Part shown: positions 939-52,401 of the stretch, piece after piece
Numbering within the stretch: the stretch's first letter is position 1
Layout of the letters: every line of letters begins with the position of its first letter
IMG/VR virus record: IMGVR_UViG_3300031851_000001
Length of the DNA stretch: 64,000 bases
Reading direction: 5' to 3' (one strand)
Source of the DNA: a virus
Lineage: Duplodnaviria; Caudoviricetes
Made by a program: the position numbers and the translations under genes
The notes under the pieces: generated by a model
Seen by the model: the letters and a program-made list of their open reading frames with translations, nothing else
Databases searched by the model: none
Told to the model about the DNA's origin: nothing

Positions 939-1406
939 ATGAGGCACGAATTGGCATATAGCGGAAGGTTTCGACCAAAGAACCCAACTAAATACAAGGG
1001 TGACCCTACAAAGATTATTTATCGTTCCATGTGGGAATTTAAGTTTTTTCGTTATGTAGATGAACATCCTGATGTTGTATGGTGGCAAAGTGAAGAGGTA
1101 GTAATACCATATATGTCTCCTATTGACGGAAGAAGGCACAGGTATTTTCCTGATGTTATTGTTCATAGGAAAATAGCGAGTGGCGAACAGAAAACTTTGA
1201 TGATTGAAATTAAACCGGCTGCACAGACAAAGCCACCTGATAGAAGTAAAATGAAAACGAGTAAAGGTCGGGTATCCCGCAGATATCTAAACGAGGTAAA
1301 GACATATGGCGTCAACGAAGCGAAATGGAAAGCAGCTAGAAAATTCTGCGCTGACCGTGGTTGGGCATTTGAAATTTACACAGAACACGAACTGGGATTA
1401 AAGTAA
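939..1406 (+). CDS. gp4: Head completion nuclease gp4
   Basis: YSGRFRPKNPTKYKGD, YRSMWE, YFPD and IEIKP motifs typical of gp4 (TnsA-like). Confidence 0.92.
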   Translation: MRHELAYSGRFRPKNPTKYKGDPTKIIYRSMWEFKFFRYVDEHPDVVWWQSEEVVIPYMSPIDGRRHRYFPDVIVHRKIASGEQKTLMIEIKPAAQTKPPDRSKMKTSKGRVSRRYLNEVKTYGVNEAKWKAARKFCADRGWAFEIYTEHELGLK

Positions 1407-11350: not shown

Positions 11351-12211
11351 CTATTTTTTACCTTTGTATGTTTTTTGGTTTGAAGATTTATCCGCTGTTG
11401 CTGATAAACCCAGTGATCCAATTGCTCCCATGTTACCTTTAAAGATATACGAACCAATATGGTTGATTTGCATCCAAGGACACATCCATACCTTCATACC
11501 AGCTTCACGCGCTTTTTGACAAAAGAAGTAATCTTCACTCAAATAACGTTTGGTTCTGGGATCAATAATACAATCAAAGTAAGCCATAATTTCGTTAGAT
11601 CCGTCAAACTTTTCAGTTCTTGCATGATCTGGTTTATAACTATACTCTGGGTATGCTGCTTTGTATGTTTCAAATGTTTTTCGTGGAATACACATAAAGC
11701 CTGTACCACCTTCGCCAATTTCTAATGGCTGTGATAGTTGAAAGCTTGACATTTTATCAACTGGATTAAAAACATAATCAGCAGTGTATTGGTCTAATAG
11801 GAACGGGTTTTCATCGGCTTTACCTAGTTCAGCAGCTCGAGCAACCTTTTCCCATGCGATTGTTTTCTTAGGGTATGGACCTGTAACGATATTGTATTTT
11901 TCTGGATCTGATACTTGTACTGCAATCATACCAAAAATATCTCTTGGATCAAAAGCAATATCCGAATCAATAAACACTAAGTGAGTACAATCCGATCTCA
12001 TAAACTCATCGGCAACATAGTTACGTGCTCGTTGAATTAAACTTTCATTAAACAAATAGTAAAACTTTACAGTAATACCATTAGCTGCGCACATCATTGC
12101 AAGATCGGTACATGATTTAGTAAACGATCCACTGCAATTCCCTCCATACATTGGCGTCCCAATAAAGATTTTATATTGTTTTAGTTCGTCAACGCTGATT
12201 TCAATTTTCAT
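11351..12211 (-). CDS. GT-A fold (GT2-like) glycosyltransferase
   Basis: IGTPMYGG, RARN, FIDSD (DxD), LSEDYFFC, HIG. Confidence 0.75.
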   Translation of the reverse strand: MKIEISVDELKQYKIFIGTPMYGGNCSGSFTKSCTDLAMMCAANGITVKFYYLFNESLIQRARNYVADEFMRSDCTHLVFIDSDIAFDPRDIFGMIAVQVSDPEKYNIVTGPYPKKTIAWEKVARAAELGKADENPFLLDQYTADYVFNPVDKMSSFQLSQPLEIGEGGTGFMCIPRKTFETYKAAYPEYSYKPDHARTEKFDGSNEIMAYFDCIIDPRTKRYLSEDYFFCQKAREAGMKVWMCPWMQINHIGSYIFKGNMGAIGSLGLSATADKSSNQKTYKGKK

Positions 12212-12843
12212 ATTTCAATTTGCTCCAAATCGTTTTCTGCACGTGTAATGGCTTGAAGTCGCAGAATGTCTGCAGCCACGTCGTGTTTACTATCATGTGC
12301 TTTAAAATTATATTCCCATTTAGCAGTATTAGATACAGGAACAAAACCATTTATTTTAGGGAAATCAAACTTGGCATCAATAAATGTACGAGTATCACGT
12401 ACAGCCCAATACTTAAGGTAATCATTCATAAGTGAAGTCTTATTTGCGTATTGTGCTAATCTCTCTAGTATTACTGGATCAAAAGAATTAGATCTTGACC
12501 ACCATCGCTCAACCTTATTAGATGATCTTAAATAGTCAATTAACTTTTCCATAAATTGAACTGGTGTAAGATCGTTTTCTGATGGTTTTAGATTAACTCT
12601 TAATGCAGGTGGTTGGTCAAGCCACCATTGTAAATCACGATCGTTATATTTACATCCGTGGTTTTGTACTTGGTCTTTAATATTAAACTTAGCTTGTTGC
12701 ATGCCAAGTACCAACTCTTTAAAAGAATATGGATTTTCTGTAAATCGACTCCAATCAAAGGTCGTGTACGAGCAATCAATCGCTGGTACCTCGCGTGAGT
12801 TTTGACCAATGGTTTCGAAGTCAATAATAAAGTGTGTGCTCAT
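12208..12843 (-). CDS. dexA: DexA-like DEDDh 3'-5' exonuclease
   Basis: FIIDFETIG, WSRSNSFDPVIL, YWAVRDTRT, HDSKHDVAADIL. Confidence 0.85.
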   Translation of the reverse strand: MSTHFIIDFETIGQNSREVPAIDCSYTTFDWSRFTENPYSFKELVLGMQQAKFNIKDQVQNHGCKYNDRDLQWWLDQPPALRVNLKPSENDLTPVQFMEKLIDYLRSSNKVERWWSRSNSFDPVILERLAQYANKTSLMNDYLKYWAVRDTRTFIDAKFDFPKINGFVPVSNTAKWEYNFKAHDSKHDVAADILRLQAITRAENDLEQIEI

Positions 12844-14045
12844 TATATAAATGCCTCTAGTGTATCTGCTTTAGTAATATAGTCGGCCTTCTGACTATGA
12901 TTATACTGCATAATGTAGTCCGTGTCAACCATTTTTGCGTTACCTTCAATATATTTTTTCACTTCGCCTGCCATGTCTTTTGCAGTTTGAACTGGAACGT
13001 TTTGGCAAATATGGTTAGATGATTGCTTTGGATTAAGCAATTCAAAGTCTTGTGGCAATCCCATAATAGTCATAGCTTCTCTATATGTAATGAAACGATC
13101 TTCATCTGGGTGTGTTAACATTTTAGGATAATGTCCAACAAAAGCACCAATATAATCTTTAGGAATAGTTACACCACGTTTCATAATGTTACCACCTGAT
13201 TTTAGCTTTTCATATTTACGCATAGATTTTTCAGCTTCGTTATCATAGCCATGCTTAGCCATCCATTCAGAAACCTGTTTAAAGTTATATCCATTACGTT
13301 CAATATATGTAAATACACATAAACCAGATTTAGTAAACTGATTGTCAACTAATTCAGAATGTTCTTTGTGTGTTCTACCACCATGTATCTCTTCTAAAAC
13401 AAACTTATAGTAAGGATTATCTGATGGAGTCTTATTACTGATTGGTTCCATTTGAAAGTTTGATGTTACCTCACGTATTACTTCTTCAATAGGTTTGTGT
13501 GGTCTATTGAAATATCCAAGCAATGGTGTTTGTGTATCTTTCCAAAAGAAATAAAACGAACGCTCACGTACTTGTGGTGCGCCATGTAATAGAGATCTTG
13601 TTCTATATACAGACATGGTGTAACCGTTTTTCTTACCAATTTCTCTTAATTGGGCTCTAACGTTTGTACCAATTTTACCTGCAAATGCTGGAGCATTCTC
13701 ACCCCAGAACACTTTTGGTTTATATTCGCCTAAGATATATTCTGCAGTCTTTCCCATCCACTGGTTATTTGGATTATGATCGCCATAACCGTGAGACATC
13801 ATAGATAAACCAGCACACGGACAAACAGATGATACCACATCAGCTCTTTCATTTACAGGTGGTGCTTCGCCTTGGTCCAACAGATAATAATTAATTCTAT
13901 TATCATAATAATTTAAAATGTGGCTATCGTTTGCTTGAAAACCATCGTACGACATAAAGTGTAGTGGTTCAGTTCCAAATGCTTGTTGTGATCCAATAGT
14001 TTCGCCACCAATTAATGGAACAATAGATGCGTGTGTAATACTCAT
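12843..14045 (-). CDS. C5-cytosine methyltransferase homolog with atypical motif I
   Basis: Motif IV CPCAGLS, VI GENAP, VIII PQVRER, IX/X REAMTIMGLP and QNVPV. Motif I reads VPLIGG rather than FxGxGG. Confidence 0.75.
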   Translation of the reverse strand: MSITHASIVPLIGGETIGSQQAFGTEPLHFMSYDGFQANDSHILNYYDNRINYYLLDQGEAPPVNERADVVSSVCPCAGLSMMSHGYGDHNPNNQWMGKTAEYILGEYKPKVFWGENAPAFAGKIGTNVRAQLREIGKKNGYTMSVYRTRSLLHGAPQVRERSFYFFWKDTQTPLLGYFNRPHKPIEEVIREVTSNFQMEPISNKTPSDNPYYKFVLEEIHGGRTHKEHSELVDNQFTKSGLCVFTYIERNGYNFKQVSEWMAKHGYDNEAEKSMRKYEKLKSGGNIMKRGVTIPKDYIGAFVGHYPKMLTHPDEDRFITYREAMTIMGLPQDFELLNPKQSSNHICQNVPVQTAKDMAGEVKKYIEGNAKMVDTDYIMQYNHSQKADYITKADTLEAFI

Positions 14046-14062
14046 TATTTACCTTTCTGATA

Positions 14063-15316
14063 TTAGAAGAATGACTCTAAGCCAATCGTTGGCTTTTCTG
14101 GAATTGGAAATTCTTCTAAGTTTGGCGCAACATAATTTGGATTTATGCTGGTCATAATCTTATTATTGAGGAATGTACCGTCATAATATTCTGGTTTTAA
14201 AATTGTTTTTTGTAGTAGTTCTAACAAATGATTATATTTTGCTGGATCGTCCTTTAACATTTGAATACGCTCAGCTAATTGTTCTGGAGATTTAACTCTT
14301 AGAAAATCAGGAATATTTGTATGTCTTTGCTCGTCGTAAGTTGGATGTAAAAATGGAATTACACCAGCGTGGATCATTTCAATATATTTTGAAGTTACCC
14401 AACCTTTTTTAATTGGAATGATAAAAGTAAATTTAACATCTTGTAGTTTTTCTTGCAGCGCGTCAATTTTAAGCGATCCTTTAAACCGCGTATCACCTTC
14501 CATAATTTCTTCTGACCATTTGCCATAAATGTCAACATCCTCATTATGGTCGAGGATCCATTCTTTTAACAATTTATAACGCGATGGTTTGCCTTCGTTT
14601 AATACAATCATAAAGTCTGTATTACGATTTCTATTTATGTCCGTTCCATGTTCGTAATCTAAACAAAAAGCTGTTTCCATACCTGCATATACAGATTTAA
14701 CTGATATTGGTGTACGTGTTTGGTCTTCATACGAATTAATTTTATTTGAAATATATTCATAATCGTATTGACCAAGTGACATTGTTGGTGGATGCATCAT
14801 ATCTCTGGCTTGATTCATAACATACCGTGGATCATTTACAATTTCAACATAGTTTGGTCTACAATCATTTAACCACGATGTAATACCAGTCGTATAACCT
14901 TTTGTCATATCAAGTACTGTTGATATTTGAGTTGCGTCGTTTACTTTAACAATTCTATCGGGTATCGTAACAGAACCAACTTGACCAACCATTAGTACAG
15001 TATAATCAAGTTCAATATTATTATTTTTGAGATAGTTTTTTACATGGTCATAATAATCTTGGTTGTAATGCTCAGGTCCAATAGACCTTTTGTTCCAAAC
15101 ATCTACTACGTTGTTATATGGAAATAATTCGTATTGCTCTGCTTCATTTAAATAACCATAATCAGTACGTCCAATAATATGGAATGTAATATCTGGGTTA
15201 AGGTTTGCTAATGCGCGTAGCGTACAGCTTGCCTCGTTGTCGCCACCAATTGGCGAATATTTATTTCTCTGGAACTTTACCGATTTGCCAAGTTTTCCAA
15301 ATCCAATGTGTTTCAT
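14063..15316 (-). CDS. GT-B DNA glycosyltransferase, T4 beta-glucosyltransferase-like
   Basis: C-terminal domain (DIYGKW, FKG, VTSKYIEMIHAGVIPF, LRVKSPEQLAERIQML) parallels the T4 BGT C-domain as I recall it. Confidence 0.7.
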   Translation of the reverse strand: MKHIGFGKLGKSVKFQRNKYSPIGGDNEASCTLRALANLNPDITFHIIGRTDYGYLNEAEQYELFPYNNVVDVWNKRSIGPEHYNQDYYDHVKNYLKNNNIELDYTVLMVGQVGSVTIPDRIVKVNDATQISTVLDMTKGYTTGITSWLNDCRPNYVEIVNDPRYVMNQARDMMHPPTMSLGQYDYEYISNKINSYEDQTRTPISVKSVYAGMETAFCLDYEHGTDINRNRNTDFMIVLNEGKPSRYKLLKEWILDHNEDVDIYGKWSEEIMEGDTRFKGSLKIDALQEKLQDVKFTFIIPIKKGWVTSKYIEMIHAGVIPFLHPTYDEQRHTNIPDFLRVKSPEQLAERIQMLKDDPAKYNHLLELLQKTILKPEYYDGTFLNNKIMTSINPNYVAPNLEEFPIPEKPTIGLESFF

Positions 15317-15319
15317 AAT

Positions 15320-15679
15320 CTAATCCTTCATCAATTCTATAAACGTATAGGGAAGCATGGCCTTGTCATCAATATAGTAAACACCATATGGTTTACCGTA
15401 TTGTATTTCATCGTAAGGTACTTTATGCTCATTTAACCACGTTGTAGTAATATCACCAACATCCTCTATGACTTTATTTATGTCTCCACGATGAGTCAAC
15501 ATTCTTCGCGCAGTACTAATAACAATTTTATATTCAAGCTTTTTTGCTTTAGTAAGTGCTTCTATCATTTCAGGGATTGGCTGTGCTAATCCATATTTTC
15601 TATATGTATCCTTTTCGTCATGATTAGGAATACATATAGTATCGTCTAAATCAACGACTAATGTTTTTTGCGTAGTCAT
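15320..15679 (-). CDS. HAD phosphatase (EcbF/BcbF-like)
   Basis: VVDLDDTI (DxDxT), TAR, GKP, YIDDKA. Confidence 0.85.
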   Translation of the reverse strand: MTTQKTLVVDLDDTICIPNHDEKDTYRKYGLAQPIPEMIEALTKAKKLEYKIVISTARRMLTHRGDINKVIEDVGDITTTWLNEHKVPYDEIQYGKPYGVYYIDDKAMLPYTFIELMKD

Positions 15680-17120
15680 TTACGTAATCTTTCATTCTTT
15701 GTTGTCTGTCTGGACAATCATAGTGTAATTTAATGCAGGTAGCAATCAATAAAGCACCACCATCAATTATTTCATTATATACCGTCGGATAGTATTTGTC
15801 AACTAGTTTACTAAATGACCAGGAAACATAATCAGGATATTTGTTTCCTGTAACTAATTCAGAATAGCCATGATATAAGTCATGTGATAGTTTACACATA
15901 TCATATAAGTAATCACCACCGCAGCCAACATGGTCTCCGTACGAACCGCGAGGATCAAGCAATGTGATACTATCATTATATGGATTATATAGAATATTAC
16001 CAAAGTGTAAATCGCCATGCATTGCCGAAACAGGTTCAGCTTTATCAAGGCAGCGTTGTGCGACACCGTTATAAAAATCTTTAGAACATGTTAGACGTTC
16101 CGATGTTTTATTGACCCACATCTTTTCAGCATTATCATGGAAGTCAGCAGTAAATTCTAATGTGGCTTTACCATGGAAGTGAGTACGCATAGCCAGAATA
16201 ACTTTTTCAATTAAGTAATCAATAGTACTATTAGAAATCTCTTCGTGTGCAAACAAATCAGATAATAGAATTCCTGACTCGTATGACATTGACAATGCGT
16301 AATCGTCTTTAAGAATTTTAGGAACAAACATACTCTGAACTGGATTGAGAGTTTCAAACCAATTCTTTTCGTTCATAATTGTTCTTACAGCAAATGTATT
16401 GTTATGAGATGGTATTTTAGTAATGGCGTTGATGTCTGATCTATATTCAAACGAATTAAACTCACGTGCCTTAAATGTAAGGAACTCTGCACAAGTTTTA
16501 TGGTACGATGCGATATCGCCAATGTCATACCAACGATCAGTGTTTATATTATTAAAGGCACCATATAATTCAAGCGCATCGGATATTTCATAACCATCAG
16601 TATCATAAAAACAATCTGAAGCTTTTATCCCATCACTAAAACTATATAAACCGACAAGCGCGTCAGCATTTGGAACTGTGTTTTTTGGTTTATTAAAATA
16701 GTTGTTACCATCCCACATGCACCAAGCAAAGTGATCATCGACTTGTTTAGTTAATAGAAAATCAGAACCAAGTGGCAGCTCATCCTCAAGGATAATAGCA
16801 TCACCTAACCAAACAACAAGTGGCAATGATTTATCATCTAAGCTTTCAATACCAACTGATATAGCATCACGGGGACCATTAAGAGATCCCTGCTTTACGC
16901 ATTTAACTACATCGTATTTTTTAGCCCATTCTCTGATGTCATTATGTTTACCATCAACGACAACGATTTGGTTTATTCCTGTCGTATTATTATAAATGGA
17001 TTCAATAATATACTCGATAGTTGGTTTGCCGTGTACACGTACCATTGCCTTTGAACAGTTTGATGTTAACGGTTTAAGACGTGTGGCTTCACCTGCTGCC
17101 GGTATTACTATGTTTATCAT
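15651..17120 (-). CDS. Sugar nucleotidyltransferase fused to APH/choline-kinase-like domain
   Basis: IPAAGEATRL..K N-domain and HGDLHFGNIL / LLDPRG C-domain. Confidence 0.85.
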   Translation of the reverse strand: MINIVIPAAGEATRLKPLTSNCSKAMVRVHGKPTIEYIIESIYNNTTGINQIVVVDGKHNDIREWAKKYDVVKCVKQGSLNGPRDAISVGIESLDDKSLPLVVWLGDAIILEDELPLGSDFLLTKQVDDHFAWCMWDGNNYFNKPKNTVPNADALVGLYSFSDGIKASDCFYDTDGYEISDALELYGAFNNINTDRWYDIGDIASYHKTCAEFLTFKAREFNSFEYRSDINAITKIPSHNNTFAVRTIMNEKNWFETLNPVQSMFVPKILKDDYALSMSYESGILLSDLFAHEEISNSTIDYLIEKVILAMRTHFHGKATLEFTADFHDNAEKMWVNKTSERLTCSKDFYNGVAQRCLDKAEPVSAMHGDLHFGNILYNPYNDSITLLDPRGSYGDHVGCGGDYLYDMCKLSHDLYHGYSELVTGNKYPDYVSWSFSKLVDKYYPTVYNEIIDGGALLIATCIKLHYDCPDRQQRMKDYVNDYAKNISR

Positions 17121-17751
17121 AATTTAATTTCCATTCACTATATTCATCTTCTAACATTGCCCACTGGCAACGAGTGTATTTATGTTCCGCTGTCTTATCC
17201 CATATGATCCACATATAGGCAATCATACCACCAATTTGGTCTTTTTTATCAACAGGTTCTAATATGTTAGAATCAAATCTTACTCTGTCTGATAGATATA
17301 TTATATCACTAGGTGGGTTAGATGTAAACAGTTTATTTCGCTTCTTACCTTCAAGAAACGTTAAACGTAAAAACATTGCAGTGTAATCGTATTCGTCTGT
17401 CCATTTTTCTGCTAGTTTGCGTGGCAAATCTTTATGGTATGGAGGGTTAGTGATTACACCTTTAACGTCTTTATCTTTTGGTAACTCTAATGCGTCGTAT
17501 GGTGTATTTATGTTAGTGAGAGTATTAGGATATACGTTAAGGTCGTAGGATATAACATCGTGGCCATTACGTAAAAGCTCTGATGAAATATGCCCACGAC
17601 CAGCGCATGGCTCTATAACTTTATGCGGTACATTACCGTATTTACATAGAATATATGTTGCTAAGGGAGGAGTAGGATAAAAATCATTCACCGTTCTATT
17701 TGGATCATTCTTTTTAACGCCAACATATATGTCCGTTAAGTTATTCGCCAA
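17089..17751 (-). CDS. DNA amino-methyltransferase (N6-adenine type)
   Basis: DFYPTP, EPCAGRG (SAM motif), ITNPPY. Confidence 0.8.
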   Translation of the reverse strand: MANNLTDIYVGVKKNDPNRTVNDFYPTPPLATYILCKYGNVPHKVIEPCAGRGHISSELLRNGHDVISYDLNVYPNTLTNINTPYDALELPKDKDVKGVITNPPYHKDLPRKLAEKWTDEYDYTAMFLRLTFLEGKKRNKLFTSNPPSDIIYLSDRVRFDSNILEPVDKKDQIGGMIAYMWIIWDKTAEHKYTRCQWAMLEDEYSEWKLNYDKHSNTGSR

Positions 17752-18253
17752 GTGAAGTTACCCGTACATTTGCTTCTTTAAACATAGGTAAACTCTTTTC
17801 TTCCCATACCTTTTGCCAATCACCTTTAACACTTTTATCTGATGATATGACTACACGTTTAATACCCGCTTGAATAACAAGTTTGGTACAATCAGAACAT
17901 ATAGGTAATCCATATACGTATAAAGTAGAGTCTTTTAGTGATACACCGGCATATAACGCATTCATAAGTGCATTCATTTCAGCATGTACTACAAGACTAT
18001 GTTTGGTAGGACGATCGTTTAAACGATCTTCAGTATCTTCAATACCTTTTGGAAACCCATTATAGCCTGTAGCCAATATGCGTCTATCATCATTAACAGC
18101 AACACAACCAATTTTACTTGAAGGGTCTTTGCTCCAATCAGCGATCATAGTCGCTAATGACATAAAACGGTTATCCCATTTAAGGCGGTTTGTATCGTCT
18201 TCTTTCATTCGTCTTCCCATATAAGCATAATAGCTTTCCCTACTTGCACTCAT
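17741..18253 (-). CDS. cd: dCMP deaminase
   Basis: SKDPSSKIGCV, GYNGFP, HAEMNA, PICSDC. Confidence 0.92.
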   Translation of the reverse strand: MSASRESYYAYMGRRMKEDDTNRLKWDNRFMSLATMIADWSKDPSSKIGCVAVNDDRRILATGYNGFPKGIEDTEDRLNDRPTKHSLVVHAEMNALMNALYAGVSLKDSTLYVYGLPICSDCTKLVIQAGIKRVVISSDKSVKGDWQKVWEEKSLPMFKEANVRVTSLGE

Positions 18254-18948
18254 TGTTTTACCAAATCAAAGTGACGTTCATAGGTATGTAAGTTCATTAC
18301 CTGCCACGTAAGCATACCCTTTTGAATAGTAAAGTGCTTATTGCCGGGAAGTTTACATTGTTCATTCCATTGAGCAACAAACTTATCCATAAGATATTGT
18401 GCCCACGCATAATCATTCTTGTAGCCAAACACAACATCATTAGAACGCATTTGAGATACCATATGTAAGATACCATCACGAATATAGAATGTTTGTGCAT
18501 TAGTACAGATGAAATCAGACTTACCACCTTCGTCAAACTCAACCCAAATAGATGGACGATTATAAATCATTTGAGCACGACGGCTATCAGGGTTACTCCA
18601 TAGTTCATCAAAAGCATTTTGGAATTGGTTATGATATTTTTTAGAGAATACTAAATGGCCATAGTTGGAATTAATATTACCGTGCGGATCTGCTGAATAT
18701 TGCCATGCGGCAGGAGCAGGTTTGGATGGTCCATAGATATCATTAATGTTTGTTGATTGCGACTCATACCATGCCAACTCCGCATTAATATATTCTTGTA
18801 CAGGTTTACCAAAGATAGCAGGTTCATCAGCGACAAACGATGCACCAAGTAGCTCGATTGTTTTTGCACCAGTTTTATCTGTAGTAAATCGTTCAGCTTT
18901 TAGTTCGTCAATAAAATAATTACGAATGTCACTTACGCTATTCATCAT
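18250..18948 (-). CDS. gp42: dCMP hydroxymethyltransferase gp42
   Basis: DKTGAKTIELLGASFVADEP, INSNYG, DSRR, DFICT (catalytic Cys), RSNDVVFGYKND (Asp specifying dCMP). Start taken at the SD-preceded ATG. Confidence 0.9.
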   Translation of the reverse strand: MMNSVSDIRNYFIDELKAERFTTDKTGAKTIELLGASFVADEPAIFGKPVQEYINAELAWYESQSTNINDIYGPSKPAPAAWQYSADPHGNINSNYGHLVFSKKYHNQFQNAFDELWSNPDSRRAQMIYNRPSIWVEFDEGGKSDFICTNAQTFYIRDGILHMVSQMRSNDVVFGYKNDYAWAQYLMDKFVAQWNEQCKLPGNKHFTIQKGMLTWQVMNLHTYERHFDLVKQ

Positions 18949-19261
18949 CTTCTCCTTTAAATCTATCATCGGTATCAATTGGATCAGACTCAAGTGTTGT
19001 CATACAAAGGATCATCATTTGAGTTAATGCGTGTGATACGTGTGGTAAGCCAGACTCTGGGTCAATATCTTCACCAGAAATATACGCCAAAAGGTGACGT
19101 TGAATAGAAGAGTAATGACGAGATACTGGAAATTTATTTATGTCATGCCGCCAATTGTTTTCACCATACTTTTCAGCACCAAAACCAAATACCTTAGCAG
19201 CTTCAATGATAGCTTCTGGCGGAACTAAATGGATTTTTGGTTTGTCATTATCAAATTTCAT
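18938..19261 (-). CDS. dATP/dGTP diphosphohydrolase-like (DUF5664)
   Basis: KFDNDKPKIHLVP, GAEKYGENNW, RH, DPESGLPHVSHA. Confidence 0.85.
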   Translation of the reverse strand: MKFDNDKPKIHLVPPEAIIEAAKVFGFGAEKYGENNWRHDINKFPVSRHYSSIQRHLLAYISGEDIDPESGLPHVSHALTQMMILCMTTLESDPIDTDDRFKGEDDE

Positions 19262-22305: not shown

Positions 22306-22461
22306 TTATTCTTCACCTAACCAAATATTAATACTTAATAGGTTTTTATCTCTTTTACTTATTGCGTATTCTATATTGAGATCATGTAATGCTTTTCTTA
22401 ACGCTACTAATTTAGTAGGTTCTTTGGGTCTTACCCAGGTTTTTGATGGTTCATCATCCAT
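22306..22461 (-). CDS. Small hypothetical protein (51 aa, not in track)
   Basis: MDDEPSKTWVRPKEPTKLVALRKALHDLNIEYAISKRDKNLLSINIWLGEE. ATG overlaps the upstream stop. Confidence 0.6.
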   Translation of the reverse strand: MDDEPSKTWVRPKEPTKLVALRKALHDLNIEYAISKRDKNLLSINIWLGEE

Positions 22462-22871
22462 TATAGAGCTTTCTTTAAATCGCCGTGGTTACCTTCATGG
22501 CTTGGAGCAGTCCAACCCTCTGGTTTAATCAAGTCAGGTAATCCAAACGGATTTGGCCGACCTTCTTTAACACCAACATCTTTAGCAGCGTTTGCCTCGT
22601 AAACTTTATTCCAAGCCATATTTGCATCAACTCCAAATACATCAAGTGTACCAATAGCGAATACGCACATATCAATTAAACCATCAACAATTTCTTCAGG
22701 ATCTTTGGCTTCAATAGCATCCATCGTTTCCATGAGTTCTTCCTCACACATTGATAAACGAAACTTTAGGTATTTGTCCATCAAGTCTTTATTATCTTTA
22801 TTGGCTTCAAACCATTCTCTGACGCCAAACTTGTTGTGCATCATATACATATCGTTAGCAAAATCGCTCAT
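22461..22871 (-). CDS. MazG-like / PRA-PH NTP pyrophosphohydrolase
   Basis: EELMET, EIVDGLID, VYEANAAK, DLIKPEGWTAP. Confidence 0.85.
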   Translation of the reverse strand: MSDFANDMYMMHNKFGVREWFEANKDNKDLMDKYLKFRLSMCEEELMETMDAIEAKDPEEIVDGLIDMCVFAIGTLDVFGVDANMAWNKVYEANAAKDVGVKEGRPNPFGLPDLIKPEGWTAPSHEGNHGDLKKAL

Positions 22872-39101: not shown

Positions 39102-39956
39102 ATGAAAGTTTTAGTTACAGGCGCAACGGGTTATATCGGATCACATGTTTGTTACAAACTGAAACAAAATGGACACTATGTTGAAGGCTGGGATATTAAT
39201 TTCCATGGTGAGTATAACGACGTATCTTTTATTGACTTGTTTGAAAAGGTAGACATTACAAACATAATGTATAATGAACAAAAGTTTGATGCCGTTGTTC
39301 ATCTTGCTGGTAGAAGTATAGTACCACAAAGTCTTAAAGAGCCATCTGAATATTATAGAGTAAATGCAATGGGTACTGACCATTTACTTAAAAAAGTTAA
39401 AACACCAAACTTTATATTCGCCAGTACTAGCTCGGCATTTGAAATGGCATCGCCATATGCTCGTAGCAAAGTAGCAGCTGAGGATATAATTAAGGAGAAA
39501 GCCAATGGGCACACTATTTTTCGCTTTTATAATGTTTCTGGCACTAATGGGACATTACGGCAGCTCGGTGTTCCAAGTCATCTTATTCGCGTGGCTAGTT
39601 TGGTTGCTCACGGACAATTACCCGATATTAAAATCTTTGGCACAGACTACCCTACTCGTGATGGGACTTGCATACGTGATTATATACATGTTAGTGATCT
39701 TTGTAGCGCTATCGTAAAAGCAGTAGAAACCGGTCCAACAAATACACCATATGAATGCCTTGGTTCTGCGCAAGGGTATTCGGTATTAGATGTAATTGAT
39801 TCAATGGAAAGAGTTACTGGTAAAAAACTTAAAAAGGTTTTAACAGATAGAAGAGCAGGTGATGCAACTTCATGTATTGTTGATAATTTATCGGAATTGT
39901 GTGAGCTTACTAAAACACTTGATGATATGTGCCTAGACCAATATAATCTAGCTTAG
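39102..39956 (+). CDS. galE: UDP-glucose 4-epimerase (extended SDR)
   Basis: VTGATGYIGSH, HLAG, YARSK (YxxxK), RDYIHV. Confidence 0.9.
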   Translation: MKVLVTGATGYIGSHVCYKLKQNGHYVEGWDINFHGEYNDVSFIDLFEKVDITNIMYNEQKFDAVVHLAGRSIVPQSLKEPSEYYRVNAMGTDHLLKKVKTPNFIFASTSSAFEMASPYARSKVAAEDIIKEKANGHTIFRFYNVSGTNGTLRQLGVPSHLIRVASLVAHGQLPDIKIFGTDYPTRDGTCIRDYIHVSDLCSAIVKAVETGPTNTPYECLGSAQGYSVLDVIDSMERVTGKKLKKVLTDRRAGDATSCIVDNLSELCELTKTLDDMCLDQYNLA

Positions 39957-40425: not shown

Positions 40426-40739
40426 TTTTTTGTTCCCTTCTGTCTAATAATCTTAGTATTAGATTTGGTTTCTAAGTGTTTTAGACGCATTTCCATATCG
40501 TCAATCTTTTGAGTGATTTTTGGATACTTTTTACGCCAAGCATTTTCCGGCTGCTCTAACCATGTCCAACCCCAACGTTCAACCAAGAAATCCATTCCTC
40601 TATCAAATCGAGCGTATAACCATAAAGCCATTCGCGTGGTGCTGAACCATGTCGAAAACGCGAGTCCAATAATAGACCCGCCTATCGCAGTATAGATCCA
40701 TAAACGATCTCCTGCCATATTAGATAACATTTCCCACAT
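40422..40739 (-). CDS. Membrane-anchored hypothetical protein
   Basis: N-terminal TM, Trp-rich, C-terminal coiled coil. Confidence 0.75.
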   Translation of the reverse strand: MWEMLSNMAGDRLWIYTAIGGSIIGLAFSTWFSTTRMALWLYARFDRGMDFLVERWGWTWLEQPENAWRKKYPKITQKIDDMEMRLKHLETKSNTKIIRQKGTKK

Positions 40740-41470
40740 TATTCATTTCCCTTTGTATATTTACAATAATGGTTCATACCATGATCGTATGCTCCATCAA
40801 AAGGCATTCCTTTTTTCAGTGCCCTCCAACGACCTCTCCATTGGTCTTTAACTCGTTGCCATTTGGAAGCTTTTCTAATTTTTCCGTAGTAATTGATATA
40901 ACGCGGAGCGGTAGTATGTCTATACCCGAGGAATGCGAACGGTACTTTTGGTACGATATCATTATTGTTGACATGCCGATAGTGAGGAATATGATTAAAG
41001 CTTTTAACAAATTTTCGTGTTCCTGCTCTTGGAGATCCATATGTATATAACGCATCACATACGTCAGGCAGTCGGCTCGCTGCAATAGTAGCCATTGCTC
41101 CACCAAGTGAATGCCCAGTTATATAAAACATCTTTCCTTCTAATTTCATTTTTGCCATGGCTGTTCTAATTTCATCCCAGATTTTTTCAATTTCTGTTTG
41201 GAAACCATTATGAACATATCCATAGCCATTTGCTGCTTTATCTGGTAAAGCATTTAAGTCTGCTTTAATATCAGAAAACTCAGAAGGCTCAGTACCTCGG
41301 AAACATAATACTATTTCGCTTTTATTTGAAACGATATGAACTTGAGCTCCATCGTTTTCAATAAATTTGTGCGAAGTGTAACCAACTTTTTTATATGCAG
41401 CCTTGGCTTCTTTTCCATCCATATATGCTATTTGTGCGCATTGCGCCATTAATGAACATTTATTTTCCAT
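40739..41470 (-). CDS. Class 3 lipase / alpha-beta hydrolase
   Basis: FRGT, VHNGF, TGHSLGG (GxSxG), DIVPKVP, H. Confidence 0.9.
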   Translation of the reverse strand: MENKCSLMAQCAQIAYMDGKEAKAAYKKVGYTSHKFIENDGAQVHIVSNKSEIVLCFRGTEPSEFSDIKADLNALPDKAANGYGYVHNGFQTEIEKIWDEIRTAMAKMKLEGKMFYITGHSLGGAMATIAASRLPDVCDALYTYGSPRAGTRKFVKSFNHIPHYRHVNNNDIVPKVPFAFLGYRHTTAPRYINYYGKIRKASKWQRVKDQWRGRWRALKKGMPFDGAYDHGMNHYCKYTKGNE

Positions 41471-51207: not shown

Positions 51208-52401
51208 ATGACAATGAAATGTATAGTTCCGGAAACCGGGATTACAATTAATCCTATTGGCGAAATGGTTATATGTTGTGCAGGTGACAACGTAGCGCTT
51301 TCGCATATCAAAGATGTGGATAACCTTACCGAGTTTTTTAATGGCGAAGTGTATGATAAACTTCGTTCTGACTTCAAAGAAAAGTCGTTTCCAAAACAAT
51401 GTAACGTATGTTGGAGACATTGGGATGCAGGTCGTATTGCTAGGTTTGACTCATACAACCGATTTAGCTTTCCTACATATGAAGAAGATTTAGCGTCTGA
51501 CGTTATTCCTATTAGATTTCTTGAGATCACAACAAGTAACATATGCAATCAAATGTGTGTCTCTTGTTCTGGTAAGTATTCTTCTAAGTGGTCGCCATAT
51601 GAAAAAATGGCGGTTGAGTCTGGTCTAACATGGCGCAACGAAAACCACAAGTTCCATACCAAAATGTATAAAATGACTAAGGCTGATGTTGATAAGGTAT
51701 TGGATATAGTTCCACACCTGCAGCATTTAACTATTAAGGGTGGTGAACCTTTTGCTGATCCTAATAACATAAAGATACTAAAAAAGTTAGCCGAAACTAA
51801 TCCCGGCTGCAGGGTAGAGATATGCACAAACATGCAACTCGTAACTAACACAGTTATTGAAATATTGCATCAGATAAACGAAGTACATATTCAAGCAAGC
51901 ATTGACGGCATACATGAAATGTATGATTGGATACGTGGAGGTAACTTTAAGAAGACAGTAAACAACATTAAGAGATACCACGAACACTCTGGACGTAAGG
52001 TAGTTATTGTATCAACAGTATCTGTATATAATTGGATGCACCTTCCAGAACTTATCGACTATTGGAAAACTATTGAGGGCGTGGATAGAATTAGCATGGC
52101 TAACCTTGTTACATTCCCTAAATATTGTAGTCCATGTTACCTAGACGAACACCACATAGAAGAAGGCAGAAACAAACTATTTGATTACTTAAAAGATTGG
52201 GATAAAAAGTCAGACACTTATTATACGACAGACAACCTACATTTATCAGGCATGAATAATGTATTGAGTGTGGTACAAGGTGATGATGATATTAAACTAA
52301 TACAAAAACGAATGATACAATGGATCGACTTTTGTTTAGTCGCTCGTGAAAACAATGAAGATATATATGAGTTAGCACCATACTTAGAGGATTACAGATG
52401 A
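51208..52401 (+). CDS. Radical SAM protein with N-terminal SPASM/twitch-like Cys motif
   Basis: CNQMCVSC, IKGGEP, N-terminal C..CC...CxxC. Confidence 0.88.
   Translation: MTMKCIVPETGITINPIGEMVICCAGDNVALSHIKDVDNLTEFFNGEVYDKLRSDFKEKSFPKQCNVCWRHWDAGRIARFDSYNRFSFPTYEEDLASDVIPIRFLEITTSNICNQMCVSCSGKYSSKWSPYEKMAVESGLTWRNENHKFHTKMYKMTKADVDKVLDIVPHLQHLTIKGGEPFADPNNIKILKKLAETNPGCRVEICTNMQLVTNTVIEILHQINEVHIQASIDGIHEMYDWIRGGNFKKTVNNIKRYHEHSGRKVVIVSTVSVYNWMHLPELIDYWKTIEGVDRISMANLVTFPKYCSPCYLDEHHIEEGRNKLFDYLKDWDKKSDTYYTTDNLHLSGMNNVLSVVQGDDDIKLIQKRMIQWIDFCLVARENNEDIYELAPYLEDYR

What the first reader, a model, noticed from the sequence alone, without database searches (positions are those of the whole stretch)
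12843..14045. C5-methyltransferase paradox: intact catalytic motifs, broken SAM motif, in an hmC phage
Seen: motifs PC, EN, QxRxR and IX/X are kept, but motif I reads VPLIGG rather than FxGxGG, and the gene directly follows the DNA glycosyltransferase. Established: if gp42 replaces C with hmC the C5 position is blocked, and SAM-free C5-MTases can dehydroxymethylate hmC or condense it with thiols in vitro. Inference: a repurposed enzyme doing new chemistry on hmC, for example adding a non-methyl group or site-specifically removing the modification, perhaps around the GANTC promoter sites.
Basis: inference. Interest (0 to 1): 0.72.

Follow-up and report, generated by a model that had tools for sequence, protein, structure and literature searches.

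The report
Odd cytosine-methylase relative in hmC phages
A phage gene that looks like a DNA cytosine methylase keeps every catalytic residue but has a differently built cofactor pocket, and it always travels with the genes that make sugar-coated hydroxymethylcytosine DNA, so it is a working enzyme of that pathway whose chemistry is still unknown.

Summary
The ORF at 12843-14045 lies on the minus strand and encodes 400 aa with a full C5-cytosine-methyltransferase fold (Z 19 to M.HhaI). PC, ENA, QxRxR, RE and QNVP are intact. Motif I reads VPLIGG.

This motif is not decay. It is the signature of a large viral clade (248 clusters at 50% identity). P-L-x-G-G is about 98% conserved. The motif-I Phe is never aromatic, the first Gly is Leu, and the ribose-binding Glu of motif II is Ser or Thr. 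dN/dS is 0.03-0.19.

In 32 of 32 related contigs with enough flank, the gene lies 1.3-6.2 kb downstream of a gp42-type dCMP hydroxymethylase. It directly follows a hypervariable DNA-glycosylation island.

Members at only 29-49% identity, in other phage backbones, sit beside DNA glycosyltransferases, 5-hydroxymethyl DNA-kinase homologues and dCMP-specific thymidylate-synthase homologues. All seven MTL-linked thymidylate-synthase homologues examined carry the cytosine-specifying Asp.

I conclude it is an active accessory enzyme of hmC pathways. It most likely does non-canonical C5 chemistry (about 0.4). An ordinary SAM-dependent 5mC writer with an odd pocket remains a close rival (about 0.35). 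No chemistry was shown.

First readers of this scan noted the same motif on other genomes.

The parts
12843..14045 (-). MTL: a C5-cytosine-methyltransferase-fold protein of 400 aa. Catalytic motifs IV, VI, VIII, IX and X are intact. The motif I equivalent is the non-canonical but conserved VPLIGG.
   Evidence: Translation. PF00145 at 7e-17, profile positions 61-324 only. AF2 model with pLDDT 78, aligned 1-369 to M.HhaI 10-325 at Z 19.1. Family conservation. dN/dS 0.03-0.19.
14063..15316 (-). GT-B glycosyltransferase resembling T4 beta-glucosyltransferase (417 aa), 17 nt upstream of MTL.
   Evidence: AF2 model with pLDDT 88. The top Foldseek hits are T4 BGT entries 1qkj, 1nzd and 1c3j at E 1e-9 to 1e-10. 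Pfam gives only weak GT10/GT1 hits. The same family sits just upstream of MTL, one short ORF between, in two distant lineages, L084 and L087.
15320..15679 (-). Small HAD-type phosphatase (119 aa), a likely step in sugar-nucleotide synthesis.
   Evidence: phrog_1238 at 7e-22 and HAD_PNKP at 6e-4. It has the same type of role as RB69p051 and DLP3_081 in PMC13326640.
15651..17120 (-). Nucleotidyltransferase plus kinase-like fusion (489 aa), a likely NDP-sugar synthesis enzyme.
   Evidence: NTP_transferase at 1.5e-11, with weak ABC1 and fructosamine-kinase hits in the C-terminal half. The architecture matches RB69p052:53 and DLP3_082. The family recurs next to MTL in L084, L087 and L093.
17089..17751 (-). 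220-aa protein of phrog_799, annotated 'DNA methyltransferase'. Its role is unknown and it is not a constant partner of MTL.
   Evidence: phrog_799 at 1e-37. No Pfam or PDB sequence match. Present in only 12 related loci.
17741..18253 (-). dCMP deaminase.
   Evidence: dCMP_cyt_deam_1 at 5e-22.
18250..18993 (-). gp42-type dCMP hydroxymethylase, a thymidylate-synthase homologue.
   Evidence: E 1e-60 to T4 dCMP hydroxymethylase 1B5E. The stretch RSNDVVFGYKNDYAW keeps Asp at the ThyA D169 position and has Asp at the N177 position. The diagnostic residues are taken from PMC13326640.
18938..19261 (-). Small all-alpha NTP pyrophosphohydrolase (107 aa), a candidate dCTPase.
   Evidence: phrog_801 at 4e-32. 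It is conserved next to gp42 in relatives.
12208..12843 (-). DexA-like 3'-5' exonuclease, translationally coupled to MTL through a TAATG overlap.
   Evidence: Rv2179c-like at 8e-13 and phrog_255 at 5e-28. Junction sequence. It follows MTL in 54 of 62 loci.
11351..12211 (-). Conserved 286-aa protein of unknown function (phrog_1574), between the exonuclease and gp45.
   Evidence: phrog_1574 at 6e-60. Present in 62 of 62 loci with enough downstream flank. No PDB match.

Best explanation
MTL is a catalytically competent, DNA-directed enzyme of the C5-cytosine-methyltransferase fold. It has become a dedicated accessory of phage 5-hydroxymethylcytosine (hmC) pathways.

Proposed mechanism:
1. It flips a cytosine-type base out of duplex DNA.
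2. Cys77 attacks C6, Glu116 protonates N3, and Arg160 and Arg162 hold the base. These steps are inferred from invariant residues and the fold.
3. The place where canonical enzymes hold S-adenosylmethionine is rebuilt. I therefore think the group handled at C5 is the hydroxymethyl group, not a methyl group from SAM.

Two readings fit this. The enzyme may activate the 5-CH2-OX of hmC, or of its phosphorylated or glycosylated form, through an exocyclic-methylene intermediate for exchange or removal. Alternatively, it may install a hydroxymethyl group after replication on cytosines that escaped replacement. I cannot rank these two.

Shown here: the fold, the residue conservation, purifying selection and the gene associations. 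Inferred: the substrate, the cofactor and the reaction.
For: Fold and catalytic residues:
- The full C5-MTase fold includes the N-terminal cofactor subdomain (Z 19.1, 292 residues aligned to M.HhaI).
- C77, E116, R160 and R162 are invariant. N117, Q158, Q348 and N349 are at least 95% conserved across 130 representatives that share only 30-56% identity with the window protein.
- dN/dS is 0.03-0.19.

Remodelled SAM contacts, family-wide:
- The HhaI F18 position is I, V, Q, M or C and never aromatic.
- G20 is Leu in 127 of 130.
- E40 is Ser or Thr in 124 of 130 and acidic in only 1 of 130.
- New near-invariant residues appear: P10, L11, F36, N39 and D/E40.
- The family profile aligns to solved C5-MTases only from about residue 40-60 onward. 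The Pfam match likewise omits profile positions 1-60.

Gene association:
- 32 of 32 close relatives with at least 7 kb of upstream flank have a gp42-like gene 1.3-6.2 kb upstream of MTL.
- MTL directly follows a hypervariable DNA-glycosylation island, often with an ATGA overlap. Island contents include T4 AGT (1e-71), a GT4-like enzyme, UDP-galactopyranose mutase, a cytidylyltransferase, and an epimerase with UDP-glucose dehydrogenase.
- Members at 29-49% identity in other backbones sit beside BGT-like GT plus NTP-transferase, AGT/TAGT, GT25, or HMUDK_hel kinase homologues. All of these are enzyme types that act on the 5-CH2OH group in DNA.
- All seven MTL-linked thymidylate-synthase homologues examined have Asp at the N177 position and keep D169, so they are dCMP-specific.
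- In phage XG4, a T4 gp56 dCTPase homologue (41% identity) lies just downstream of MTL. In the window, a small NTP pyrophosphohydrolase overlaps gp42. Unmodified C should therefore be scarce in these genomes.

Established knowledge (from memory, Liutkeviciute et al. 2009 and 2011): SAM-free C5-MTases add aldehydes to C, remove the hydroxymethyl group from hmC and exchange its OH for thiols in vitro.
Against: - No assay and no cofactor docking was possible. Class I methyltransferases tolerate much variation in their SAM motifs.
- Several SAM-pocket features survive: the GG of motif I, an aromatic residue at the HhaI W41 position (123 of 130), an acidic residue at the D60 position (102 of 130) and the motif X Asn (124 of 130).
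- Fusion to a TET/JBP-like piece and to a CXXC finger is what one would expect of a true 5mC writer.
- T4 makes glucosyl-hmC without any such enzyme, so MTL is not needed for the basic pathway.
- No donor or nucleophile for the proposed chemistry is identified.
- The close relatives are not independent samples. The independent lineages number about eight to twelve.
Confidence: 0.4

Rival explanations
1. MTL is an ordinary SAM-dependent C5-methyltransferase that binds SAM in an unusual way. It writes 5mC, possibly at specific sites, on cytosines that remain unmodified in phage DNA or on host DNA.
For: - The fold is complete and all methyl-transfer catalytic motifs are intact.
- The motif X Asn, the GG of motif I, the aromatic residue at the W41 position and a mostly acidic D60 position are retained.
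- There is a large, variable, TRD-like insert, as in sequence-specific enzymes.
- Fusions to CXXC and to a TET/JBP-like N-terminal half resemble the known phage C5-MT -> TET -> GT pathways (PMC8256090).
- No T4-gp56, dUTPase_2, MazG or dUTPase family member was detected in the near-complete relatives G001 and G002, or in S-TIM5. Replacement of C may therefore be incomplete there.
Against: - The three most diagnostic SAM contacts are lost in essentially every member: the first Gly of motif I, the acidic residue at the end of strand 2 and the motif I Phe. Meanwhile new residues are fixed.
- A specialised clade of plain 5mC writers has no obvious reason to be tied, in several unrelated phage backbones, to dCMP-specific TS homologues and to enzymes that tailor the 5-CH2OH group.
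- XG4 has a gp56 dCTPase next to MTL.
- Small divergent NTP pyrophosphohydrolases flank gp42 in the window and its relatives. The apparent lack of a dCTPase is therefore probably a detection failure.
Confidence: 0.35
2. MTL is an anti-host weapon that acts on unmodified cytosine, which occurs only in host DNA. Without a methyl donor, the covalent 5,6-dihydrocytosine intermediate leads to deamination to uracil or to a persistent protein-DNA adduct. This marks host DNA for breakdown and nucleotide recycling, while the phage's C5-substituted DNA is immune.
For: - The enzyme would be self-toxic unless the phage's own cytosines are substituted. This explains the strict link to dCMP-specific TS homologues whatever the sugar.
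- It is translationally coupled to a DexA-like exonuclease in 54 of 62 loci. From established knowledge of T4, DexA degrades host-DNA fragments.
- From memory (Shen, Rideout and Jones 1992): C5-MTases deprived of SAM deaminate their target cytosine.
Against: - Synteny inside the T4-type replication gene block is weak functional evidence.
- Distant members are adjacent to glycosyltransferases or HMUDK-like kinases rather than nucleases.
- The deamination side reaction of known enzymes is slow.
- No uracil-DNA-related genes were noted nearby.
Confidence: 0.13
3. MTL is a non-catalytic DNA-binding or base-flipping protein, a pseudo-enzyme that serves as a reader or scaffold for the glycosyltransferases.
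For: The cofactor motifs are non-canonical. The gene is often translationally coupled to the upstream glycosyltransferase.
Against: - The nucleophile Cys, the Glu of motif VI and both Arg of motif VIII are invariant over 130 representatives at 30-56% identity to the window protein. This is hard to explain without catalysis.
- The partner glycosyltransferase changes family from phage to phage, which argues against a specific complex.
Confidence: 0.04

Closest known systems
Bacterial and eukaryotic DNA cytosine-5 methyltransferases (M.HhaI, M.HaeIII, DNMT1; Pfam PF00145)
   Same: The fold is the same over 1-369 (Z 18-19). The PC nucleophile, the motif VI Glu, QxRxR of motif VIII, RE of motif IX and the motif X Asn are shared. 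A large insert sits at the TRD position.
   Different: - Motif I FxGxG reads (I/V)PL(I/V)GG.
- The motif II Glu is Ser or Thr.
- PCQ is PCA, ENV is ENAP, and GN is QN.
- The insert at the TRD position is all-helical in the model.
- Profile matches omit the first 40-60 residues.
- The genomic context is hmC biosynthesis and glycosylation, not restriction-modification.
CmoX, the DNA cytosine C5-carboxymethyltransferase of Synechococcus phage S-B43 (PDB 8YF3; PMC12783734)
   Same: It is the top Foldseek match. It is also a phage C5-MTase-fold enzyme that transfers something other than methyl and feeds a hypermodification pathway. It is the precedent for cofactor switching in this fold.
   Different: CmoX keeps the canonical adenine and ribose contacts (F25, E47, F48, D69). 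It is defined by SPPC and by Arg350 replacing the motif X Asn. MTL has lost the canonical contacts and keeps the Asn (N349). No CmoA partner was seen among the cluster genes scanned.
Phage C5-MTs of the MT -> TET/5mYOX -> glycosyltransferase clusters (PMC8256090; bioRxiv 2023.12.21.572611)
   Same: These are C5-MTase-fold genes clustered with DNA glycosyltransferases, including TAGT-type enzymes, in viral metagenomes. Some clades (III and IV) showed no detectable methylase activity in E. coli.
   Different: Those systems make hmC after replication from 5mC and carry a dioxygenase. MTL travels with the pre-replicative route (a dCMP-specific TS homologue, a dCMP deaminase and an NTP pyrophosphohydrolase). 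No TET was found in any fetched phage locus. Their reported sequence differences lie in motifs IX, X and the TRD, not in motif I.
aGPT-Pplase step of thymidine hypermodification, downstream of the 5-HMUDK kinase (PMC8989533). This is a functional analogy only.
   Same: In two PolA-type phage contigs, MTL lies next to or near an HMUDK_hel kinase homologue. That is the position in which hmU pathways carry the enzyme that displaces the phosphorylated hydroxymethyl group.
   Different: There is no sequence or fold relationship. The analogy rests on gene neighbourhood alone. The base would be cytosine, since the adjacent TS homologue has Asp at the N177 position.

Membership tests
DNA cytosine-5 methyltransferase (PF00145, M.HhaI type) | Two-domain C5-MTase fold with a Rossmann-like catalytic domain | tested here: met
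   The AF2 model (pLDDT 78) aligns over 1-369 to M.HhaI 10-325 at Z 19.1, rmsd 3.7, 292 residues. It also aligns to HaeIII, DNMT1 and CmoX.
DNA cytosine-5 methyltransferase (PF00145, M.HhaI type) | Motif IV Pro-Cys nucleophile | tested here: met
   P76-C77. The Cys is present in 129 of 130 family representatives.
DNA cytosine-5 methyltransferase (PF00145, M.HhaI type) | Motif VI Glu-Asn and motif VIII Q-x-R-x-R | tested here: met
   E116 is present in 130 of 130 and N117 in 128 of 130. Q158 is in 128 of 130, and R160 and R162 are each in 130 of 130.
DNA cytosine-5 methyltransferase (PF00145, M.HhaI type) | Motif I F-x-G-x-G, the SAM-binding loop | tested here: not met
   The loop reads V9-P-L-I-G-G14. 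Across the family, position 9 is I, V, Q, M or C and never aromatic, and position 11 is Leu in 127 of 130. Registration to HhaI F18-G23 comes from the structural alignment offset and from secondary structure.
DNA cytosine-5 methyltransferase (PF00145, M.HhaI type) | Motif II acidic residue at the end of strand 2, which binds the SAM ribose hydroxyls | tested here: not met
   The equivalent position 32 is Ser (114) or Thr (10) of 130 and acidic in only 1 of 130. The next-but-one position, 34, is variable. The role of this residue is taken from the CmoX and HhaI structures.
DNA cytosine-5 methyltransferase (PF00145, M.HhaI type) | Motif X Asn and motif III Asp, which contact the SAM methionine and adenine | tested here: inconclusive
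   N349 is kept in 124 of 130, but in a QNVP context rather than GN. Position 57 is D or E in 102 of 130. The motif X segment has pLDDT below 50 in the model.
DNA cytosine-5 methyltransferase (PF00145, M.HhaI type) | SAM binding and methyl transfer to C5 of cytosine | not testable with these tools
   This needs a binding assay and LC-MS of the product.
CmoX DNA cytosine C5-carboxymethyltransferase | Arg replacing the motif X Asn (R350), the SPPC motif and a CmoA partner | tested here: not met
   MTL has N349 and SVCPC. The signature is taken from PMC12783734. No CmoA-like hit appeared among the ten cluster genes scanned. The rest of the window was not screened for CmoA.
gp42-type dCMP hydroxymethylase (context gene 18250-18993) | TS fold, with Asp at ThyA N177 (cytosine specificity) and Asp retained at D169 | tested here: met
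   E 1e-60 to 1B5E. The stretch RSNDVVFGYKND is present.
5-hydroxy-dCMP synthase (RB69 gp48 / DLP3 gp80 type; context gene) | D169N substitution relative to E. coli ThyA | tested here: not met
   The window protein and all the MTL-linked TS homologues examined keep Asp at this position. The criterion is from PMC13326640.
T4 beta-glucosyltransferase-like DNA GT-B (context gene 14063-15316) | GT-B fold closest to the T4 DNA glucosyltransferases | tested here: met
   The model has pLDDT 88. Foldseek ranks 1-3, 5 and 7 are T4 BGT entries, and AGT 1xv5 is also listed. Activity on DNA was not tested.

The most novel reading that the evidence does not exclude
MTL would be the first natural enzyme of the C5-methyltransferase fold that has given up SAM-dependent methylation and works on the hydroxymethyl group of cytosine in DNA. 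It would either use hmC, or phospho- or glycosyl-hmC, as a substrate for group exchange or removal through a Cys-C6 adduct and an exocyclic methylene. Or it would write hmC directly onto leftover cytosines. This would define a new class of DNA-modifying enzyme, and probably one or more unknown cytosine hypermodifications in abundant marine phages.
Probability: 0.4. Interest if true: 0.85.

Novelty: new variant of a known kind. Interest (0 to 1): 0.68.

Why it matters
The clade is large: more than 2,000 sequences, 248 clusters at 50% identity, and at least 516 IMG/VR loci. It is essentially viral and abundant in marine T4-like phages. In public records it is annotated simply as 'site-specific DNA-cytosine methylase'.

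If it really handles hydroxymethyl rather than methyl chemistry, three things follow. It would show that nature uses a side reaction of C5-methyltransferases so far known only in vitro. It would point to unknown cytosine modifications in ocean viruses. And it would offer a new enzyme for hmC-specific labelling or sequencing.

If it proves to be a plain 5mC writer, it still revises the rules for recognising SAM-binding sites in this fold. It would also show that phages with pre-replicative hmC keep a second, post-replicative cytosine-marking system.

Two cultivated phages carry homologues, cyanophage S-TIM5 and Pseudoalteromonas phage vB_Psh_XG4, so the question can be tested directly.

Tried and rejected
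- **Pseudogene or decaying methylase: rejected.** The ORF is intact, dN/dS is 0.03-0.19, and the odd motif itself is about 98% conserved.
- **CmoX-type carboxymethyltransferase: rejected** on the Arg350 signature.
- **TS homologue as a 5-hydroxy-dCMP synthase (RB69 type): rejected.** D169 is kept.
- **No close phage genome.** Megablast of the gene against 50,697 phage records found nothing. tblastn found only the S-TIM5 group and XG4, at 29-32% identity.
- **Search for a dCTPase.** T4 gp56, PF08761, PF03819 and PF00692 gave nothing in the near-complete relatives G001 and G002 or in S-TIM5. I first read this as possible incomplete C replacement. I then found small divergent NTP pyrophosphohydrolases beside gp42, so the absence is probably a sensitivity problem. 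It remains unresolved.
- **DNMT6 or other eukaryotic DNMT families.** Papers were read but no sequence test was possible, so no link is claimed.
- **TET next to MTL in phages.** tblastn with the TET-like part of P0246 found no hit in any fetched locus. The rest of that TET domain was not found downstream on its contig, so this fusion is weak evidence.
- **Whole-contig search for TS homologues in the P0203, P0191, P0241, P0134 and P0151 lineages.** The records are not held, and IMG/VR held no close relatives of P0203 or P0191.
- **Literature.** Nine full-text searches found no paper describing this clade. Iyer et al. 2013 (NAR) is not held.
Full report
**What is there.** The coordinates hold one intact ORF on the minus strand (12843-14045, 400 aa). 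It has an AAAGG ribosome-binding site. Its stop overlaps the start of the next gene in TAATG. Pfam calls it DNA_methylase (PF00145, E 7e-17), but the match covers only profile positions 61-324, so the motif I-III part of the profile is not matched. Read directly, the protein has V9-P-L-I-G-G14, P76-C77, E116-N117-A118, Q158-x-R160-x-R162, R322-E323 and Q348-N349-V350-P351. An AlphaFold2 model (mean pLDDT 78) superposes over residues 1-369 on M.HhaI residues 10-325 (Z 19.1, 292 residues, rmsd 3.7). It superposes equally well on HaeIII, DNMT1 and the phage carboxymethyltransferase CmoX.

**The odd motif is a family signature, not damage.** An exhaustive profile-free search found 761 cluster representatives with E up to 0.001. 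Of these, 248 are below 1e-30, and they match from about residue 3 to 390. A word-indexed search found 2,190 homologues, mostly from marine metagenomes, on contigs up to 221 kb. I aligned 130 full-length representatives that share only 30-56% identity with the window protein. C77, E116, R160 and R162 are invariant. N117, Q158, Q348 and N349 are at least 95% conserved.

The motif I equivalent is just as conserved: P10 127/130, L11 127/130, G13 128/130 and G14 126/130. The secondary structure of the model and the alignment offset to HhaI register V9-G14 on HhaI F18-G23, S32 on E40, Y33 on W41 and D57 on D60. On that registration:
- The motif I Phe is never aromatic in the family (I62, V51, Q9, M5, C1).
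- The first Gly is Leu.
- The ribose-binding Glu is Ser or Thr in 124 of 130 and acidic in only 1 of 130.
- The W41-equivalent aromatic is kept in 123 of 130.
- The D60-equivalent position is acidic in 102 of 130.
- New near-invariant residues appear: F36, N39 and D/E40.

A profile of the family aligns to solved C5-methyltransferases only from about residue 40-60 onward. Between the window gene and relatives at 72-98% protein identity, dN/dS is 0.03-0.19. The protein is thus a selected, almost certainly catalytic enzyme whose cofactor half has been systematically rebuilt.

**Neighbourhood in the window.** On the same strand, reading in the direction of transcription, the genes are:
- A small all-alpha NTP pyrophosphohydrolase (18938-19261, phrog_801 at 4e-32).
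- A thymidylate-synthase homologue (18250-18993). It matches T4 dCMP hydroxymethylase at E 1e-60 and carries RSNDVVFGYKNDYAW. This means Asp at the E. coli ThyA N177 position (cytosine specificity) and Asp retained at D169. By the D169N criterion of PMC13326640 it is not a 5-hydroxy-dCMP synthase of the RB69 type.
- dCMP deaminase.
- A phrog_799 protein.
- A nucleotidyltransferase-kinase fusion and a HAD phosphatase, of the kind that builds the nucleotide sugar in RB69 and DLP3.
- A 417-aa protein whose model (pLDDT 88) is closest to T4 beta-glucosyltransferase.
- MTL, 17 nt further on.
- A DexA-like exonuclease, a phrog_1574 protein, the gp45 clamp and the gp44 clamp loader.

The phage is a T4-like virus with no close cultured relative.

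**Conservation of the neighbourhood.** IMG/VR holds at least 516 loci that encode a relative. I fetched the best 80. All 32 with at least 7 kb of upstream flank have a gp42-like gene 1.3-6.2 kb upstream of MTL. All 62 with at least 3 kb of downstream flank have phrog_1574 and gp45, and 54 have the exonuclease.

Between dCMP deaminase and MTL lies a hypervariable island. Its last gene often overlaps the MTL start by ATGA. Depending on the phage, the island holds:
- T4-type alpha-glucosyltransferase (PF11440, 1e-71);
- a GT4-like enzyme;
- UDP-galactopyranose mutase with an unknown 365-aa protein;
- a cytidylyltransferase with a HAD-domain protein and an AGT-like protein;
- an epimerase with a UDP-glucose dehydrogenase;
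- or the window's own set.

MTL is the constant element next to a changing sugar toolkit.

**Independent lineages.** The close relatives are not independent samples, so I looked at family members with 29-49% identity.

| Member or phage | Identity | Neighbourhood |
|---|---|---|
| P0224 | 30% | TS homologue, dCMP deaminase, NTP-transferase/kinase, a BGT-like GT of the window's family, MTL |
| P0241 | 33% | dUTPase/DCD, NTP-transferase/kinase, the same GT family, MTL |
| P0134 | 42% | AGT-like, TAGT-like, NTP-transferase, MTL |
| P0129 | 49% | PRA-PH-like pyrophosphohydrolase, TS homologue, dCMP deaminase, TAGT, MTL |
| P0179 | 36% | MTL followed by a GT25 |
| P0247 | 33% | a GT1-like fragment overlapping MTL |
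| P0170 | 36% | PolA-type phage: dUTPase_2, an inositol-1-phosphate-synthase-like protein, an HMUDK_hel kinase homologue overlapping MTL, then a Tmk-like kinase, a TS homologue and dCMP deaminase |
| P0151 | 38% | again HMUDK_hel and the inositol-phosphate-synthase-like protein |
| P0203 | 34% | only replication genes close by; a GT1-type glycosyltransferase about 5 kb upstream; no TS homologue within 10 kb |
| P0191 | 32% | only replication and nucleotide-metabolism genes within 10 kb |

All seven MTL-linked TS homologues that I could examine have Asp at the N177 position and keep D169. They are those of the window, L084, L090, S-TIM5, XG4 and the IMG/VR genomes G001-G003. This includes the S-TIM5 gene annotated 'thymidylate synthase' (ARSNDMATGVPLD). 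In XG4, a T4 gp56 dCTPase homologue (41% identity) sits immediately downstream of MTL. It extends to several unrelated phage backbones.

**What it probably does.** The invariant Cys, Glu and Arg residues and the fold argue for the usual first steps: base flipping and Cys attack on C6. These steps are inferred. Three facts argue against plain SAM-dependent methylation:
- The three most diagnostic SAM contacts are lost family-wide.
- The gene is strictly tied to enzymes that pre-make 5-substituted dCMP.
- It sits next to enzymes whose substrate is the 5-CH2OH group in DNA, namely DNA glycosyltransferases and HMUDK-like kinases.

It is established from in vitro work that SAM-free C5-methyltransferases add aldehydes to cytosine, remove the hydroxymethyl group of hmC and exchange its hydroxyl for thiols. 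I cite this from memory. I therefore favour hydroxymethyl-group chemistry at C5, at about 0.4. This means either exchange or removal on hmC or its phosphorylated or glycosylated form, or post-replicative installation of hmC on leftover cytosines. I cannot rank those two options.

**The strongest rival.** An ordinary methylase with an unorthodox SAM pocket stands at about 0.35. The GG pair, the W41-type aromatic, most D60-type acids and the motif X Asn all survive. The insert at the TRD position is large and variable, as in sequence-specific enzymes. Long forms also exist that are fused to a CXXC finger (P0197) or to a zinc finger plus the N-terminal half of a TET/JBP domain with an H-x-D motif (P0246; Pfam E 6e-5, below the gathering score). 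Those fusions lie on short contigs that look eukaryotic or giant-viral. They fit either order of reactions, so they do not decide the matter.

**Other rivals.** A third reading, at about 0.13, is an anti-host enzyme that attacks unmodified cytosine by deamination or adduct formation. It would be safe for the phage only because its own cytosines are substituted. This also explains the co-occurrence with TS homologues and the coupling to the DexA-like exonuclease. It fits the glycosyltransferase and kinase neighbourhoods of distant members less well. A pure pseudo-enzyme is unlikely, given the invariant catalytic residues.

**Comparison with what is known.** MTL belongs to the C5-methyltransferase superfamily by fold and catalytic motifs. 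It fails two defining cofactor motifs, so I do not file it as a standard member. It is not a CmoX, because it keeps the Asn where CmoX has the diagnostic Arg350. Even so, CmoX is the precedent that phages re-tool this fold for other groups. It differs from the phage C5-MTs of the MT-TET-GT clusters. Those accompany a dioxygenase and the post-replicative route, and their reported differences lie in motifs IX, X and the TRD. A metagenome survey of DNA glycosyltransferase neighbourhoods lists 'methyltransferases' among the neighbours but does not single out this clade. None of nine full-text searches found a description of it. Public annotation is 'site-specific DNA-cytosine methylase' or 'hypothetical protein'.

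**Verdict.** The feature is real, conserved and unexplained. It is a new variant of a known enzyme kind with a robust and unusual genomic association. First-stage readers of this scan made the same observation on at least five other genomes and on this one. Those notes were untested and did not enter my scoring.

Noticed in passing
window 14063-17751 and the same slot in L003-L082: The stretch between dCMP deaminase and MTL is a hypervariable DNA-glycosylation island. In different relatives it holds T4 AGT, a GT4-like enzyme, UDP-galactopyranose mutase, a cytidylyltransferase, an epimerase with UDP-glucose dehydrogenase, or a BGT-like GT with a HAD phosphatase and an NTP-transferase/kinase. 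This implies many different sugars on hmC within one phage group.
   Followed up: partly
window 18938-19261 (-) and 22461-22871 (-): Two small all-alpha NTP pyrophosphohydrolase-like ORFs (phrog_801 at 4e-32; phrog_671 at 1.5e-21). The first overlaps the gp42 start and is a candidate dCTPase. Searches with T4 gp56, dUTPase_2, MazG and dUTPase found nothing in the near-complete relatives G001 and G002 or in S-TIM5.
   Followed up: partly
L090:4248-12062 and L106:3633-10984: Two non-T4 phage contigs (L090 encodes a family-A DNA polymerase) carry an HMUDK_hel kinase homologue, an inositol-1-phosphate-synthase-like protein and MTL. L090 also has a SAM methyltransferase, a Tmk-like kinase, an Asp177 TS homologue and dCMP deaminase. 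This looks like an undescribed cytosine hypermodification cluster.
   Followed up: partly
proteins P0197 and P0246; loci L103 and L104: Family members are fused to a C-terminal CXXC zinc finger, or to an N-terminal C2H2 finger plus the first half of a TET/JBP dioxygenase domain (HQHFD). They lie on short Tara/JGI contigs of 47% GC. The nearest Atlas clusters are giant-virus methylases, at a score of only 0.82. The rest of the TET domain was not found downstream.
   Followed up: partly
L001:4775-5611 (cyanophage S-TIM5 gp076): The gene annotated 'thymidylate synthase' has Asp where ThyA has the uracil-specifying Asn177 (ARSNDMATGVPLD). It is therefore probably a dCMP methylase or hydroxymethylase, and S-TIM5 DNA may carry a modified cytosine.
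   Followed up: partly
window 11351-12211 (-): A 286-aa protein of phrog_1574 (unknown function; weak GT21 hit) is present in 62 of 62 related loci between the DexA-like exonuclease and gp45. It has no PDB sequence match.
   Followed up: no
window 17089-17751 (-): A 220-aa protein of phrog_799 ('DNA methyltransferase', 1e-37) has no Pfam or PDB match. It is present in only about 12 of the related loci.
   Followed up: no
whole window: GANTC is under-represented: 123 sites against 188 +/- 14 in dinucleotide-preserving shuffles, and all 100 shuffles had more.
   Followed up: no
window 51208-52401 (+), 939-1406 (+), 39102-39956 (+), 40739-41470 (-): Other genes of note are a radical SAM/SPASM protein, a TnsA-like endonuclease, an NAD-dependent sugar epimerase/dehydratase that may feed the sugar pathway, and a class 3 lipase.
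   Followed up: no
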